This document shows, piece after piece, positions 50,771 to 56,061 of a DNA stretch of 64,000 nt (the stretch's first letter is position 1; each line of letters opens with the position of its first letter). Both the position numbers and the translations under genes were made by a program. The notes beneath the pieces were generated by a model. It did not search any database, was not told where the DNA came from, and was given only the letters and a program-made list of their open reading frames with translations. Source of the DNA: Mobula hypostoma (Eukaryota); the NCBI RefSeq assembly GCF_963921235.1, contig NC_086097.1, forward strand, positions 82,958,001 to 83,022,000, in the 5' to 3' direction.

Positions 50771-53574
50771 AAAACCTGCAATAATTTAACACTTCCTTGC
50801 ACAGCATTGAATGCAGCCTTCTCTCAGAGCAGATGGTTTCTCACTCCTGAAAGGCACTGTCAAGAAAATAAGAGCCCTAATGAGAGAATAAATCAAACCC
50901 TCCTGGCCCTCGTAATACTTTTCTTAATCAGGACTATAAAACAAAGCTTTTACTCAGACCAGATTTTATTTCATTAATAAAATTTCAACAAATGCCTGTG
51001 TAATTTCATACGCAAATTCGCTTTGAATTCATATAAATAGATCAGACAAGGTAAAGATAATTTATTCTCAAAAAGGTATCAGTGAATTAGGTGCAAAAGT
51101 TTAACTTCACTATTACTGATGCTGGCTTTACAATTAAAACAAAATTGAAGTTTTGAATTTAAGTTTTCCATCTGTAAGGCCAGGGTTTGAACTCAAAACC
51201 TGGTCTGAGTCACAGAATTATTTATCTCGTTGTTACTGCAGCCCTAAACCTCACGAAATATCAACTTCCACTTCACTGCCCAACCCTTTCATAAATCTGG
51301 GAATCGGCAATTTCACTTTTACTACATATAATAACTATAAATCCCCAAAACCTGGTTTTCTGAAGCTTCCCTGACTGTGTTATTAGGTTGCTATTAAGGA
51401 TAATGTGTTAATGAATAATACCAATTGGAAATGATATGTATGTTAGAGTAGATAATCACACATTTTATGACAGTCACAGTAGGAACTATATGCGATGCTA
51501 GCTTATGTCCTAATGAGATGCACTAACTGGATCTAATTTTGGATATGCAAATTCAGAAAGATTTCTGAAATGCAGCATATACTGGCTTAAATGCTGTGGA
51601 GTGGTTTGCTTTGTTAAAGATTATGTTTGTTGTTCTGAGCAATATTCTGGAGGATCTCAGCAGGTGAGGCCGTATCCATGGTGGGAAACGAATTGTGGAC
51701 TCTTCGTCAGTATCTTCATGATGTAGGATCTCGGACAGAGGTGTCGACTGTTTATTTTCCTTTATATCCACTTCCTGCTTGTCAACCGCAGGGAGGAGAG
51801 AATGTAAAGCAGTGCTTAAATGAATTCTGTGCTAACAAGACAGAACTATGTAAAAGTCCATTTTAAGCCCACGATGTTGAGACTAATTGGCGATTACGAT
51901 GATTTTTATGCCTCTAGTTATGAGAACAGAAACTGCATATTTAGTGTGAATGCTGAATGGGAGCAGTTATCACAAAATTGTTTTTGTAGCCTCCCTTGGA
52001 GTTCCTATGGACTTCCCTTGCCAGTAGGCAAGGTAGATATTGGGATAGGTCAGAGATCAAGATAGCAGATTCTTGCCTCAAGTTTAATGTCAAAAGAGGC
52101 TATCTGGCCTATTAATCCATAAGGCCATGGACCATAAGACAAAGGAGCAGAAGTCAGCCATTTGGCCCATTGAGTCTGCTCCGCCATTTTATCATGAGCT
52201 GATCCATTCTCCCATTTAGTCCCACTCCCCCGCCTTTTCACCATAACCTTTGATGCCCTGGCTACTCAGATACCTATCAATCTCTGTCTTAAATACACCC
52301 AATGACTTGGCCTCCACTGATACACGTGGCAACAAATTCCATAGATTCACCACCCTCTGGCTGAAAAAATTTCTTCGCATTTCTGTTCTGAATGGGCGCC
52401 CTTCAATCCTTAAGTCATGCCCTCTCGTACTAGACTCCCCCATCATGGGAAACAACTTTGTCACATCCACTCTACCCATGCCTTTCAACATTCGAAATGT
52501 TTCTATAAGGTCTCTCCTCATTCTTCGAAACTCCAAGGAATACAGTCCAAGAGCGGACAAACATTCCTCATATGTTAACCCTCTCATTCCTGGAATCATT
52601 CTAGTGAATCTTCTCTGTACCCTCTCCGACGTCAGCACATCCTTTCTTAAATAAGGAGACCAAAACTGCCCACAGTACTCCAAGTGAGGTCTCACCAGCA
52701 CCTTATAGAGCCTCAACATCACATCCCTGCTCCTGTACTCTATTCCTCTAGAAATGAATGCCAACATTGCATTCGCCTTCTTCACCACCGACTCAACCTG
52801 GAGGTTAACTTTAAGGGTATCCTGTACAAGGACTCCCCAAGTCCTGTTGCATCTCAGAACTTTGAATTCTTTCCCCACTTAAATAATAGTCTGCCCGTTT
52901 ATTACTTCTGCCAAAGTGCATAACCATACACTTTCCAACATTGTACTTTATTTGCCACTTCTTTGCCCATTCTTCCAATCTATCCAAGTCTCTCTGCAGA
53001 CTCTCAGTTTCCTCAGCACTACCGGCCCCTCCACCTATCTTCGTATCATCAGCAAACCTAGCCACAAAGCCATCTATTCCATAATCCAAATCGTTGATGT
53101 ACAATGTAAAAAGAAGCGGCCCCAACACGGACCCCTGTGGAACACCACTGGTAACCGGCAGCCAACCAGAATAGGATCCCTTTATTCCCACTCTCTGTTT
53201 CCTGCCAATCAGCCAAGGCTCCATCCACGTATGTAACTTTCCCGTAATTCCATGCGCTCTTATCTTGTTAAGTAGCCTTATGTGTGGCACCTTGTCAAAG
53301 GCCTTCTGAAAATCCAAATATACAACATCCACCGCATCTCCTTTGTCTAGCCTACTGGTAATTTCCTCAAAAAATTGTAATAGGTTTGTCAGCTTTACAA
53401 CTCCTTCCTTGGAGGGTCAGATACCCTGAGCCGATAGGCTGGTCCTGGACTTAATTTCATAATTTACTGGCATAATTTACATATTACTAGTTAACTATTT
53501 ATTACTATTTTTCTGTTACTATTCTATTACTATTTATTATTTCCATGACTATTACTATTTACTATTTAATAATG

Positions 53575-54127
53575 GTTGTTCGTCCATCATTGACGTCGAT
53601 GAGGACCTCGACACCATTATGATGGTGTCGAGACTAGCGCGTGATTTGGATTTAAGTGAGGGAGAGTTGCGCAGCATCAGCCTCACTCTCTCTTCCCAAT
53701 TCCCATCTGGATCCAGTGGCAAGACAGAGTCTAGACGGCTGGAGATGGGACTAGGCGCAGTGGATGACCAGAACGTCTTCTGTGTCTTGTCCTGCTCTAC
53801 ACGTTCCACGACGCTTGCAGAGACCGCCTTCTTCACCGTTGGACCTTCCATTGGTCTCGTCCGCTCAATCTGCCGGAGTCTGTCTTCACATGCTGGGATA
53901 GACAACTCTTTATCTCACCGAGGGTTTGAGACCCGTCGGCTACCCTCACCTGGTTTAGCCGGCTTGTCGAAGCCGTTGCCCGGGGTGTGGCCGCTGTTGC
54001 ATGCAAACAGCTACGGGGAGCCACAGGTGAGAGCTGAGTGCCAGGTGGGGACCAAAGGTGGACTAACCGCCCTGAAAAGGACACGACATGTTCTCCCACC
54101 AGAGGTGCTACCCCTCCCTGACACCCC
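53575..54127 (-). mobile_element. Non-autonomous RTE-type retroposon (5' UTR fused to 3' tip), CpG-rich
   Basis: Abrupt GC/CpG-rich island in AT-rich flanks. RTE-like 5'-UTR phrases (GACAGACTCCGGCAGATTGAGCGG, TGGAAGGTCCAACGG, CATCCACTGCGCCTAGT) and a 3' end ..GATGGACGAACAAC. No RT motifs. Confidence 0.65.
53945..54127 (-). ncRNA. HDV-like self-cleaving ribozyme at the 5' end of the RTE-type element
   Basis: P1 GGGGUGU (54127-54121)/ACACCCC (53988-53982); P2 CUCACCUG/CAGGUGAG; P3 GGC/GCC; L3 begins UCC and can pair with the GG after P1 (P1.1); GGGCAAC junction; P4 CGGCUU-CGAC-AAGCCG; J4/2 GCUAA with catalytic-position C at 53958. Confidence 0.8.
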
Positions 54128-56061
54128 ATACACCATATACTAATAGTAGTATTACTATTACTATTTCTATTACTATTTATTATTTATGGTGCAACTGTAA
54201 CAAAAACCAATTCCCCCCAGGATCAATAAAGTATGACTATGACTATGACTATGACTATGTCAGGCAGGATTTTCCCTTAAGGAATCCATGCTGAGTTCTG
54301 CCTATCTTGCCATATGCCTCCAGATACTCTGTAACCTCGTCCTTGACAATCGACTCCAGCAACTTCCCAACCACAGATGTCAAGCTAACAGGTCTATAAT
54401 TTCCTTTTTGCTTCCTTGCCTCCTGCTTAAATAGCGGAGTGACATTTGCAATCTTCCAGTCCTCCGGAACCATGCCAGAATCTATCGACTTTTGAAAGAT
54501 CATCGTTAATGCCTCCGCAATCTCCACAGCTACTTCCTTCAGAGCACACGGGTGCATTCCATCTGGTCTGGGTGATTTATCTACCTTTAGACTATTCAGC
54601 TTCCTGAGTACTTTCTCTGTCATAATTGTGACTGCGCACACTTTTCTCTCCTGCCACCCTTGAGTGTCCGGTATACTGCTGATGTCTTGCTCAGTGAAGA
54701 CTGATGCAAAATACTCGTTCAATTCCTCTGCCATCTCCTTATCTCCCATTACAATTTCTCCAGCATCATTTTCTATCGGTCCTATATCTACTCTCACCTG
54801 TCTTTTACCCTTTATATACTTGAAAAAGCTTTTAGTATCCTCTTTGATATTATTTGCTAGCTTCCTTTCATAGTTAACCTTTTCCGTCTTAGTTTCCTTT
54901 TGTAAGCCTTTAAAATCTTTCCAATCCTCTGTCTTCCCACTAATTTTTGCTTCCTTGTATGCCCTCTCTTTTGTTTTAACTTTGGCTTTGACTTCTCTTG
55001 TCAACCATGGTTGCATCCTTTTTCCATTCGAAAATTTCTTCTTTTCTGGAATATACCTGTCTTGCACCTTCCTCACTTCTCGCATAAACTCCAGCCACTG
55101 CTGCTCTGCTGTCTTTCCCGCCAGTGTCCATTTCCAGTCAACTTTGGCCAGTTCCTCTCTTATGCCACTGTAATTTCCTTTACTCCACTGAAATACCGAC
55201 ACATCAGATTTCGGCTTCTCTTTTTCAAATGCCACAATGAACTCAATCATGTTATGATCACTGCCTCCTAAGGGTTCCTTCACCTCAATCTCTCTAATCA
55301 CCTCCATTTCATTACACAATACCCAATCCAGTACAGCCGATCCCCTAGTGGGCTCAACGACAAGCTGTTCTAAAAAGCCATCTCACAGACATTCTACAAA
55401 TTCTCTCTCTTGAGATCCAGTGCCAACCTGATTTTCCCAATCCACTCGCATGTTAAAATCCCCCACAATTATCATAACACTGCCCTTCTGACAAACCTTT
55501 TCTATTTCCTGTTGTAATTTGTAGTCCACATCCCTGCAGCTGTTTGGAGGCCTATAAATAACTGCCATCAGGGTCCTTTTACCCCTGCTATTTCTTAGCT
55601 CAACCCATAAAGATTCTGCACCTTCCGATCCTATATCACCTCTTTCTAATGATTTAATATCATTTCTTACCAATAAAGCCACACCTCCCCCTCTACCTAC
55701 CTTCCTATCCTTCCGATACACATTGTATCCTTGGACGTTCAGCTCCCAGAGACATGCATCCTTTAGCCAGGTCTCAGTGATGGCCACAATATCATACCTG
55801 CCAATCTGTAGCTCTACGACAAGATCATTCACCTTATTCCTTATGCTGCGTGCATTTAAGTATAACACCTTAAAACCAGTATTTGGTACTTTTCGCTTTG
55901 ATTTCACTGCAACTTTATTGCACTGCAACTCATCCCAATGGCTACAAATTTGCCCATCACCTGCCTGTCTTTCCTGACATCTTTACTGCTCACTATCTTA
56001 GATTTATTTCTGTTTTCCCCTTCCTCCGCTCTGTCATTCCGGTTCCCATCCCCCTGCCAAA

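What the first reader, a model, noticed from the sequence alone, without database searches (positions are those of the whole stretch)
53945..54127. Complete HDV-like ribozyme with a hairpin-expanded L3 marks the 5' end of a non-coding retroposon
Seen in sequence: the minus strand folds into the nested double pseudoknot. P1 is 7 bp Watson-Crick (GGGGUGU/ACACCCC). An 89-nt J1/2 (54120-54032) leads to P2 CUCACCUG(U)/(A)C-CAGGUGAG and P3 GGC/GCC. L3 starts UCC, with GG available for P1.1, followed by the HDV-like GGGCAAC, a 6-bp P4 with a CGAC loop, and J4/2 GCUAA. The GC-rich element begins exactly at G1 (54127). L3 is 28 nt (53992-54019) rather than the usual ~7-8 nt and holds its own hairpin GCUGUU-UGCAUGC-AACAGC. 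Established: HDV-like ribozymes process the 5' ends of R2, RTE and L1Tc retroelements. Inference: this element frees itself from read-through transcripts by self-cleavage instead of using a Pol III promoter, and the L3 insertion may define a structural subclass. I cannot tell whether this family has been described.
Basis: partly seen in the sequence, partly recalled or inferred. Interest (0 to 1): 0.85.

Follow-up and report, generated by a model that had tools for sequence, protein, structure and literature searches.

The report
Delta-type ribozyme heading a short retroposon

Summary
They lie at the 5' end of a ~560-nt TSD-flanked, (AAC)n-tailed, non-coding retroposon: 2,382 exact hits to an internal 29-mer in this 3.48-Gb genome.

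- **Chance.** A strict helix descriptor finds only this site in the window and none in 19 shuffled windows.
- **Second family.** An older related family has 454 exact hits. It keeps P1, P2, P3, P1.1, J4/2 and the whole 19-nt L3 hairpin unchanged. All 26 non-CpG differences fall in J1/2, L3 positions 4-5, J1.1/4 and P4, and pairing is kept by compensatory changes in P4 and J1/2.
- **No short L3.** No copy has a normal short L3 (0 hits).
- **The element does not begin at 54127.**
  - 1,643 of 1,693 copies have T at -1.
  - 980 carry a second copy of the P1 strand 9 nt upstream.
  - TSDs abut that upstream heptamer.
- **Not shown.** Catalysis is untested, Rfam models do not reach threshold, and no partner LINE was found.

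Verdict: probable HDV-like ribozyme of a new structural variant.

The parts
53575..54134 (-). This copy of the ~560-nt non-coding retroposon. The 5' end is near 54134 and the 3' end is ...GACGAAC AAC near 53575. It sits inside an AT-rich (AATAGT)-like repeat.
   Evidence: BLAST extent against 29 other copies is ~1497-2056 of the oriented locus. The tail 30-mer lies at window 53578-53607. Sequence read.
54130..54136 (-). Position of the upstream heptamer, the family's probable true P1 5' strand (GGGGUGU in the majority). It is incomplete here: AUGGUGU, with only 54134-54130 matching. The probable family cut site is 5' of the base equivalent to 54136.
   Evidence: Constrained folds favour upstream P1 by 8.2 kcal/mol on the full-length copy L027.
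54128..54129 (-). AU spacer between the two heptamers. Some copies of the older family read GU.
54117..54126 (-). 5' strand of the helix that closes the J1/2 domain.
   Evidence: MFE fold. Duplex of -18.3 kcal/mol in 10 of 13 younger-family rows, and kept in the older family with changed sequence.
54046..54116 (-). Interior of the structured J1/2 insertion. It is the most variable part between the two families.
   Evidence: 14 of 71 columns differ between the family majorities. One interior pair covaries, GC:13 and AU:9.
54036..54045 (-). 3' strand of the J1/2 closing helix (CCUGGCACUC).
54024..54031 (-). P2 5' strand (CUCACCUG).
   Evidence: Unchanged between the families.
54020..54022 (-). 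P3 5' strand (GGC).
54012..54019 (-). L3 5' part, UCCCCGUA. The CC at 54018-54017 is the P1.1 partner. Positions 54016-54015 read AA in the older family.
53993..54011 (-). Extra hairpin inside L3: a 6-bp stem with loop UGCAUGC, which contains the self-complementary GCAUGC.
   Evidence: 99.0% of cells paired in 50 copies. 0 non-CpG differences between the families. No copy lacks it.
53992..53992 (-). Last L3 base, G. It is a candidate partner of the first L3 U, like the U-G reverse wobble of HDV.
   Evidence: Sequence. The HDV feature is described in PMC3774820 (passage). The assignment here is inference.
53989..53991 (-). P3 3' strand (GCC).
53982..53988 (-). P1 3' strand (ACACCCC).
   Evidence: Unchanged between the families.
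53976..53981 (-). P1.1 3' strand GG (53981-53980), followed by J1.1/4 GCAA. J1.1/4 reads UACA in the older family.
53960..53975 (-). P4 hairpin: 6 bp with loop CGAC.
   Evidence: Compensatory swap G-C to C-G between the families (GC:12, CG:5).
53953..53959 (-). J4/2 GCUAAAC, with the candidate catalytic C at 53958.
   Evidence: Matches the GGCUAA of the Rfam RF02682 consensus. Unchanged between the families.
53945..53952 (-). P2 3' strand (CAGGUGAG).

Best explanation
The 5' ~190-200 nt of this retroposon family encode an HDV-like self-cleaving ribozyme of unusual build.

**Order of parts along the RNA**
- P1 (GGGGUGU), then a 2-nt spacer.
- A ~95-nt structured J1/2 domain. Its closing helix uses a second copy of the heptamer.
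- P2, then P3.
- L3, opened into UCC-NN-GUA plus a 6-bp hairpin plus G.
- P3', then P1'.
- GG of P1.1, then a variable J1.1/4.
- P4.
- J4/2 GCUAAAC, carrying the catalytic C.
- P2'.

**Inferred mechanism**
- The element has no promoter of its own and is transcribed as part of longer host or neighbouring transcripts.
- The ribozyme cuts 5' of the first G of the upstream heptamer, giving a defined 5' end.
- A LINE reverse transcriptase, not identified here, recognises the 3' hairpin and tail.
- That enzyme copies the RNA into a new site by target-primed reverse transcription, leaving 7-13-bp TSDs and an (AAC)n or (CAAC)n tail.

**Status of each step**
- Shown: the fold is encoded, the core is conserved, the peripheral helices covary, and 5' ends cluster at the upstream heptamer.
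- Inferred: catalysis, co-transcription and the trans-acting enzyme.

The window's own copy lacks the first two bases of the upstream heptamer, so it is probably a dead copy for that cut site.
For: **1. Fold**
- All helices are present.
- The strict helix descriptor gives 1 hit in the window against 0 in 19 shuffled windows.
- The J1.1/4-P4-J4/2 stretch aligns to the Rfam HDV-F-prausnitzii consensus (GGCAACGG...CCGGCUAA).

**2. Position of the 5' end**
- Of 29 copies sampled with an internal query, 20 reach the 5' region.
- 15 of those have a clear TSD. In 10 of the 15 the TSD abuts GGGGTGTAT or GGGTGTAT, sometimes with 1-4 extra bases. One has GGTATAT and 4 have short other additions.
- Genome-wide, 1,643 of 1,693 exact 24-mer copies have T at -1, and 980 have GGGTRTAT upstream.
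- Both older groups also carry the doubled heptamer.

**3. Which heptamer is P1**
- The downstream heptamer forms a 10-bp helix with the end of J1/2.
- Enforcing the upstream P1 gives -66.8 kcal/mol against -58.6 for the downstream P1.
- In the older family this helix is kept, although one strand gained a C and the other changed to match (-21.3 and -21.2 kcal/mol in the two best-kept of the 11 older-family copies aligned).

**4. Conservation between the two families (13 and 11 copies)**
- There are 26 non-CpG differences in ~204 nt.
- None falls in P1 (either strand), P2, P3, P1.1, J4/2 or the 19-nt L3 hairpin.
- 14 of 71 fall in the J1/2 interior, 3 in J1.1/4 and 3 in P4.

**5. Covariation**
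- One P4 pair reads GC:12 and CG:5.
- The covariation score is 0.106 against 0.086 in shuffles, with 0 of 500 shuffles reaching it.
- One J1/2 interior pair reads GC:13 and AU:9.

**6. Other observations**
- No copy has a short L3.
- The element is non-coding: no Pfam family at threshold and no homologue.
- There is no tRNA head.
- The family is also present in contigs of runs from other organisms.
Against: - No cleavage assay exists. No raw RNA reads were on hand, since all runs laid were contigs, which cannot show RNA ends.
- Rfam finds nothing at gathering score. In E-value mode there is only a 13.2-bit partial match, E = 6.6, against a threshold of 44.
- L3 is 28 nt. HDV and CPEB3 have 7-8 nt (10.1101/2022.09.22.508989, passages). 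In R2, P1.1+P3+L3 total fifteen conserved nucleotides (PMC3774820, passage). I know of no active HDV-like ribozyme with a helix in L3.
- The pair at the cut site is G-C, not the G-U wobble of HDV (recalled, not from a call).
- The HDV-like GGGCAAC is not kept in the older family (GGUACAC), so that resemblance may be chance.
- Within the young family there is no covariation at all (observed equals shuffled).
- The covariation between families amounts to about one event each in P4, the J1/2 interior and the J1/2 closing helix. None lies in the pseudoknot helices P1, P2, P3 or P1.1, which never vary.
- The older-family copies were picked with a 22-mer that covers P3, the L3 5' part and half of the hairpin. 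Per-copy identity there is therefore forced.
- 713 of the 1,693 copies lack the exact upstream 8-mer. These are mutated, shortened or otherwise joined.
- No partner LINE was found.
Confidence: 0.75

Rival explanations
1. One reading: the ribozyme uses the downstream heptamer (54127-54121) as P1 and cuts 5' of 54127. The nine bases upstream are added anew at each insertion.
For: - The downstream heptamer is complementary to P1' in the same way.
- A few copies have a TSD directly against G1: L076, and L062 by eye.
- Some junctions carry short unrelated additions: TCT, GCT, GACAT.
- In this window copy only the downstream heptamer is complete.
Against: - T at -1 is present in 1,643 of 1,693 copies, and the same 8-mer in 980. 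Untemplated additions would not be this uniform.
- Sequence upstream of a cut site is not inherited (PMC3774820, passage).
- Most of the 30 inspected copies with a non-T at -1 are point mutants of the same 9-mer.
- The downstream heptamer is held in a helix that is kept by compensating changes between the families.
- The fold with the upstream P1 is 8.2 kcal/mol better.
Confidence: 0.07
2. The 5' domain is a conserved structured RNA that does not cleave. It might be an internal promoter, a binding site for the mobilising protein, or a stability element. The precise 5' end would then be a transcription start.
For: - A sharp 5' end and a conserved structured head are also expected for promoter-bearing SINE-like elements.
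- L1Tc combines a promoter and a ribozyme in the same 77 nt (PMC3383444, abstract in the listing).
- The L3 size and the G-C cut-site pair depart from known active ribozymes.
- The helices that define the pseudoknot show no covariation.
Against: - The first base of the family's RNA is the first base of a 7-nt strand complementary to a site 149 nt downstream. That site lies in exactly the HDV topology: P3' directly before it, GG for P1.1 directly after it, and a C-N-A-A junction before P2'.
- The strict descriptor gives 0 hits in 19 shuffled windows.
- No tRNA-like head was found.
- The unpaired J4/2 heptamer and the UCC of L3 are invariant between the families, while neighbouring unpaired stretches changed.
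Confidence: 0.15
3. The HDV-like pattern is a chance look-alike in a GC-rich repeat.
For: - The relaxed descriptor hits about once per shuffled window (7 hits in 8 shuffles).
- The MFE z-score is only -1.84.
Against: - Strict descriptor: 0 hits in 19 shuffles.
- Local shuffles: 1 of 3000.
- The pattern coincides with the retroposon's 5' end.
- The core is unchanged between two diverged families, while the periphery changed with compensation.
Confidence: 0.03

Closest known systems
HDV-like ribozymes at the 5' ends of non-LTR retrotransposons (R2, R4/Dong, baggins, RTE, L1Tc)
   Same: - Nested double-pseudoknot topology.
- Position at the very 5' end of the element.
- A long J1/2 insertion; R2 J1/2 loops reach 216-498 nt, and part of one is needed for activity (PMC3774820, passages).
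- Variable junction additions upstream of the cut site.
- The presumed role of freeing the element from a co-transcript (PMC6765202, passages).
   Different: - L3 is 28 nt with its own helix, where known ribozymes have a closed 7-8-nt loop.
- The P1 strand is duplicated, and the second copy is built into the J1/2 closing helix.
- The cut-site pair is G-C.
- The host element is non-coding and dispersed.
- No Rfam model reaches threshold.
- Activity is untested.
SIDEs (R2 and R2/R1 short internally deleted elements) and NARTc (the non-autonomous partner of L1Tc)
   Same: These are non-coding elements that keep a 5' HDV-like ribozyme and a 3' end recognised by a LINE enzyme (PMC3414825 and PMC3383444, abstracts in the listing; PMC6765202, passage).
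   Different: - Those elements are evident deletion derivatives of a known LINE that shares both ends.
- Here no LINE sharing the ribozyme or the tail was found. 0 of 26 tail hits were non-family. Only 2 genome hits join the ribozyme to another downstream sequence; one is a mutated copy and one a single fusion.
- Insertion is dispersed, not rDNA-specific.
Genomic HDV ribozyme
   Same: - L3 begins UCC.
- P1.1 is two G-C pairs.
- In the young family J1.1/4 reads GGGCAAC as in HDV (recalled).
- The J4/2 C is followed by N-A-A.
   Different: - HDV L3 has 8 members (10.1101/2022.09.22.508989, passage).
- HDV has a G-U wobble at the cut site (recalled).
- HDV has no J1/2 domain.
- The GGGCAAC motif is not kept in the older family.

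Membership tests
HDV-like self-cleaving ribozymes | Nested double pseudoknot: P1, P2, P3 and P4 in the order P1-P2-P3-P3'-P1'-P4-P4'-P2', with P3' directly joined to P1' | tested here: met
   Descriptor scan. 91.6-95.2% of cells paired in 24 and 50 copies.
HDV-like self-cleaving ribozymes | P1.1: two pairs between L3 and the two bases after P1' | tested here: met
   CC of L3 with GG. 97.0% of cells paired in 50 copies. Unchanged in the older family apart from CpG decay.
HDV-like self-cleaving ribozymes | Catalytic C in J4/2 followed by purines (C-N-A-A) | tested here: met
   GCUAAAC at 53959-53953. Invariant between the families. Aligns to the RF02682 consensus GGCUAA. Its catalytic role cannot be tested here.
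HDV-like self-cleaving ribozymes | Short closed L3 of about 7-8 nt | tested here: not met
   L3 is 28 nt with an internal 6-bp hairpin. There are 0 copies with 2-12 nt between GGCUCC and GCC. Known sizes are taken from 10.1101/2022.09.22.508989 and PMC3774820 (passages).
HDV-like self-cleaving ribozymes | G-U wobble at the base of P1 (the cut-site pair); this feature is recalled, not from a call | tested here: not met
   The first G pairs with C. In one search this pair reads GC:29, GU:2, AU:1 and 18 unpaired among 50 copies.
HDV-like self-cleaving ribozymes | Score above the gathering threshold of an Rfam HDV-type model | tested here: not met
   No hit at gathering score. RF02682 gives 13.2 bits against 44. 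The genome search with RF02682 gave no match, with only 62 of 137,875 candidates scored.
HDV-like self-cleaving ribozymes | Site-specific self-cleavage 5' of the first base of P1 | not testable with these tools
   There is only indirect support: TSD-defined 5' ends at the upstream heptamer.
Non-autonomous non-LTR retroposons (SINE-like or SIDE-like) | Target-site duplications, 5' truncations, and a simple-repeat 3' tail | tested here: met
   - TSDs of 7-13 bp, and tails of (AAC)n or (CAAC)n.
- 9 of 29 sampled copies are 5'-truncated.
Non-autonomous non-LTR retroposons (SINE-like or SIDE-like) | No coding capacity of its own | tested here: met
   - No Pfam family at threshold.
- No homologue among longer proteins.
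- Open frames without stops do exist but match nothing.
Classical SINEs | Pol III head derived from tRNA, 7SL or 5S | tested here: not met
   - ARAGORN finds no tRNA in four loci.
- Rfam gives no hit.
- 7SL and 5S were covered only through Rfam.
Non-autonomous non-LTR retroposons (SINE-like or SIDE-like) | A partner LINE that shares the 3' end | tested here: inconclusive
   All 26 of the first tail hits on contig C1 are family copies. Only the exact 30-mer was searched.

The most novel reading that the evidence does not exclude
This may be a structural subclass of HDV-like ribozymes in which L3 is opened and capped by an extra helix. That helix would be more than a tolerated insertion. Its 19 nt, including a loop with the self-complementary GCAUGC, are unchanged across two families that differ at 20% of J1/2 interior positions. 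It could therefore serve a second function: loop-loop pairing of two element RNAs, or a handle for the mobilising protein. The doubled P1 strand would let the J1/2 domain and P1 form at the same time. If this is right, descriptor and covariance-model searches with a fixed short L3 have been missing ribozyme-headed retroposons in large animal genomes.
Probability: 0.3. Interest if true: 0.78.

Novelty: new variant of a known kind. Interest (0 to 1): 0.62.

Why it matters
- Ribozyme-headed retroposons are an established kind.
- All described HDV-like ribozymes that I could find have a small closed L3, and search tools assume this.
- A highly successful family (thousands of copies, two diverged lineages, also seen in other organisms' runs) with a helix inside L3 and a duplicated cut-site strand would widen the known sequence space of this fold.
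- It would give structural biologists a natural test of how much the active-site loop tolerates.
- It would suggest that such ribozymes are under-counted in vertebrate-sized genomes.
- The case is directly testable with one in-vitro transcription experiment.

Tried and rejected
- **Rfam.** The gathering scan of the window gave nothing. The RF02682 scan of the genome gave nothing, with few candidates scored.
- **Covariation within the young family.** None; observed equals shuffled.
- **RNA evidence.** All 24 runs offered are kept as contigs. The four laid show that the family is present in other organisms, but they cannot show RNA ends or expression. Near-fixed differences in one organism were listed only in part (34 rows not shown), so I draw no count from them.
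- **Partner LINE.**
  - Tail 30-mer against body 29-mer: no non-family tail among the first 26.
  - Same J motifs with another P4: 31 of 32 hits are point mutants of this family and 1 is unrelated.
  - Ribozyme joined to another downstream sequence: 2 hits.
- **Coding potential.** Pfam and a search among longer proteins gave nothing.
- **tRNA head.** None.
- **A canonical short-L3 subfamily.** None.
- **Alternative P3 using the hairpin stem with a 7-nt loop.** Rejected, because that loop has no CC for P1.1 and would leave long unpaired joints next to P2 and P1'.
- **Literature.**
  - Searches found no description of this family or of an L3 helix.
  - Subscription papers (Webb 2009, Ruminski 2011) were not readable here.
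Full report
**What is in the window**

- A heptamer at 54127-54121 is complementary to 53988-53982.
- P2 has 8 bp: 54031-54024 with 53952-53945.
- P3 has 3 bp: 54022-54020 with 53991-53989.
- L3 is 28 nt (54019-53992). It starts UCC and contains a 6-bp hairpin (54011-53993).
- GG follows directly after P1'.
- P4 has 6 bp with a CGAC loop (53975-53960).
- J4/2 is GCUAAAC, with the candidate catalytic C at 53958.

Rfam finds nothing at gathering score in the whole window. In E-value mode the only relevant match is a 13.2-bit partial alignment (E = 6.6, threshold 44) of the J1.1/4-P4-J4/2 stretch to the HDV-F-prausnitzii model.

**Is it more than chance?**

- It hits this site and nothing else on either strand of the window.
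- It also gives 7 hits in 8 dinucleotide-shuffled windows, and 1 of 3000 local shuffles. The relaxed pattern alone proves little.
- With the helix lengths actually present (7-bp P1 without G-U, 8-bp P2, 6-bp P4), the window has 1 hit and 19 shuffled windows have 0.
- The MFE of the region is only mildly better than shuffles (z = -1.84).

**What the element is**

The stretch is the head of a repeat.
- A 231-nt query gave 2,066 first-look candidates in the 3.48-Gb assembly.
- Exact-pattern counts are 2,382 for an internal 29-mer, 1,693 for a 24-mer at the head and 515 for the CpG-rich tail 30-mer.
- Copies are ~555-560 nt and end in ...GACGAAC followed by (AAC)n or (CAAC)n.
- They are flanked by 7-13-bp target-site duplications and are often 5'-truncated: 9 of 29 in a sample drawn with an internal query.
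- There is no tRNA-like head, no Pfam family at threshold and no protein homologue.

It is a non-coding, non-LTR, trans-mobilised retroposon.

**Where the element starts**

That query included TAT, so I drew a second sample with an internal query.
- In that sample 20 of 29 copies reach the head, and 15 have a clear TSD.
  - In 10 the TSD abuts GGGGTGTAT or GGGTGTAT, sometimes with 1-4 extra bases.
  - One has GGTATAT.
  - Four have short other additions: GACAT, TCT, GCT, TAT.
- Genome-wide, the base at -1 is T in 1,643 of 1,693 copies.
- GGGTRTAT lies directly upstream in 980 of the 1,693. Of the 100 listed there, 83 read TGTAT and 17 read TATAT.
- Most of the 30 inspected copies with a non-T at -1 are point mutants of the same 9-mer.

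The R2 work spells out the relevant logic: what lies upstream of a self-cleavage site is removed from the template and cannot be propagated (PMC3774820, passages). The inherited RNA therefore begins at the upstream heptamer.

In the window copy the family sequence ends at about 54134 (GGTGTAT). This copy lacks the first two bases of that heptamer.

**Which heptamer is P1?**

- The MFE fold pairs the downstream heptamer plus CAGG with CCUGGCACUC at the 3' end of J1/2. This 10-bp helix closes the J1/2 domain.
- On a full-length copy (L027, 5' 155 nt), enforcing P1 with the upstream heptamer gives -66.8 kcal/mol. The downstream heptamer gives -58.6, because only the former lets the closing helix form.

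**A second family gives the comparative evidence**

- Contigs of another organism showed CC to AA at L3 positions 4-5 in about half of the depth.
- The same variant has 454 exact hits in this genome.
- The 14 copies I could fetch belong to an older, clearly diverged family.
- I aligned 11 of them with 13 copies of the young family (A2). The other three were left out: L125 and L127, whose 5' parts do not align with the family, and L131, whose first ~40 nt also fail to align there.
- The two family majorities differ at 26 non-CpG positions in ~204 nt.

| Region | Non-CpG differences |
|---|---|
| J1/2 interior | 14 of 71 columns |
| J1/2 closing helix | 4 |
| L3 positions 4-5 | 2 |
| J1.1/4 | 3 |
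| P4 | 3 |
| P1 (both strands), spacer, P2, P3, P1.1, 19-nt L3 hairpin, J4/2 | 0 |

Pairing is kept where sequence changed.
- One P4 pair swaps G-C to C-G (GC:12, CG:5). A second P4 pair goes from U-A to U-G.
- One J1/2 interior pair goes from G-C to A-U (GC:13, AU:9).
- The closing helix keeps 10 or more contiguous pairs, although its 5' strand gained a C and its 3' strand changed to match.
- On A2 the covariation score is 0.106 against 0.086 in shuffles, with 0 of 500 shuffles reaching it.

Cautions on this evidence:
- It amounts to roughly one event per helix.
- None lies in P1, P2, P3 or P1.1, which simply never vary.
- Related sequences can beat shuffles without any structure.
- The older copies were chosen with a 22-mer that covers P3, the L3 5' part and half of the hairpin.
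- Within the young family alone there is no signal.
- A ~690-nt older subgroup of the young family (180 exact hits) has the same head.

**The L3 hairpin**

- It is present in every copy. A pattern allowing 2-12 nt between GGCUCC and GCC-P1' has 0 hits.
- Known L3 loops have 7-8 members (10.1101/2022.09.22.508989, passages). In R2 the P1.1, P3 and L3 regions total fifteen conserved nucleotides (PMC3774820, passage).
- The first L3 U and the single G after the hairpin could form the U-G reverse wobble described for HDV-like ribozymes (PMC3774820, passage). That assignment is inference.
- The hairpin loop contains the self-complementary GCAUGC. The CPEB3 crystal structures show L3-mediated dimers through a 4-nt palindrome (same preprint). 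A kissing dimer here is speculation.

**What remains against the ribozyme reading**

- There is no assay, and no raw RNA reads were available (laid contigs only).
- L3 is far outside the known range.
- The cut-site pair is G-C instead of the G-U wobble (recalled).
- The HDV-like GGGCAAC is not kept in the older family.
- No partner LINE was found.
  - All 26 first tail hits are family copies.
  - The same J motifs with another P4 return only family mutants plus one unrelated hit.
  - The ribozyme joined to other downstream sequence occurs twice.

**Comparison with what is known**

- Ribozyme-headed LINEs (R2, R4/Dong, baggins, RTE, L1Tc) and their non-coding riders (SIDEs, NARTc) are established (PMC3774820, PMC3414825, PMC3383444). 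A review states that some SINEs use HDV-like ribozymes (PMC6765202, passage).
- This element works like those.
- As a member of the HDV-like family it meets the topology, P1.1 and J4/2 tests. It fails the L3-size, cut-site-wobble and Rfam-score tests.
- I therefore file it as a new variant, with activity unproven.
- Four literature searches found no description of this family or of an L3 helix. Subscription papers could not be read.
I saw it only after forming my own reading, and I tested its claims here.

**Verdict**

This is probably (0.75) a genuine HDV-like ribozyme of unusual build that defines the 5' end of a very successful non-coding retroposon. The cut site and element start are 9 nt further upstream in the family, and the window copy is incomplete there.

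Noticed in passing
L066, L068, L072 (about 520-660 nt into the oriented element): An older ~690-nt subgroup carries a ~130-nt insert in the loop of the 3'-terminal hairpin. The insert looks like a tRNA-derived SINE piece, with A-box-like GGCGCAGTG and B-box-like GAGTTCAAATC. ARAGORN calls no tRNA there.
   Followed up: partly
window 53577-54143 (+) and 53558-53914 (-): - The strand opposite the element is free of stop codons over its whole length. This holds in the majority string (186 codons) and in 26 of 43 copies.
- The sense strand has a 113-codon open frame that runs into the tail, open in 30 of 38 copies.
- There was no Pfam hit and no homologue.
   Followed up: partly
L007, L034, L074, L081 (5' junctions): Some 5' junctions carry short inverted copies (TGACAC..., GACA...) or direct copies (TGTCAGG) of the element's first bases. 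This looks like snap-back or template-switch products at the end of reverse transcription.
   Followed up: no
listing; L003, L010, L019, L021, L036, L047: About one in six copies with the upstream 8-mer read GGGTATAT instead of GGGTGTAT (17 of the 100 listed). That puts an A-C mismatch in the upstream P1 with no compensating change in P1'. I could not tell whether this marks a subfamily or a recurrent change.
   Followed up: no
L119 (G000:C5:77071280-77071800): One locus holds only the ribozyme module (bases 3-192 of the element query). From the first base after P2' it continues in unrelated sequence. It could be a fusion or a later insertion.
   Followed up: partly
TSDs: By eye, TSDs mostly start with A and often end with T. 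This suggests a target preference of the mobilising endonuclease, or priming by the AAC tail. I made no count.
   Followed up: no
window 54262-54400 (-) and 54150-54260: Just upstream on the same strand lies a fragment that, read by eye, encodes a LINE reverse-transcriptase-like peptide (YRPVSLTSVVGKLLE...). It is cut off by a (CATAGT)n run and an AT-rich (AATAGT)-like repeat, and the retroposon sits in that repeat. I did not run it against Pfam.
   Followed up: no
L103, L105, L106, L111, L114, L115: Six of the 23 copies aligned share CCTGGAAC in place of CCTGGCAC in the 3' strand of the J1/2 closing helix. This weakens the duplex to -11.8 kcal/mol in the two such copies folded (L105 and L115). 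The helix is therefore not kept perfectly in every lineage.
   Followed up: partly
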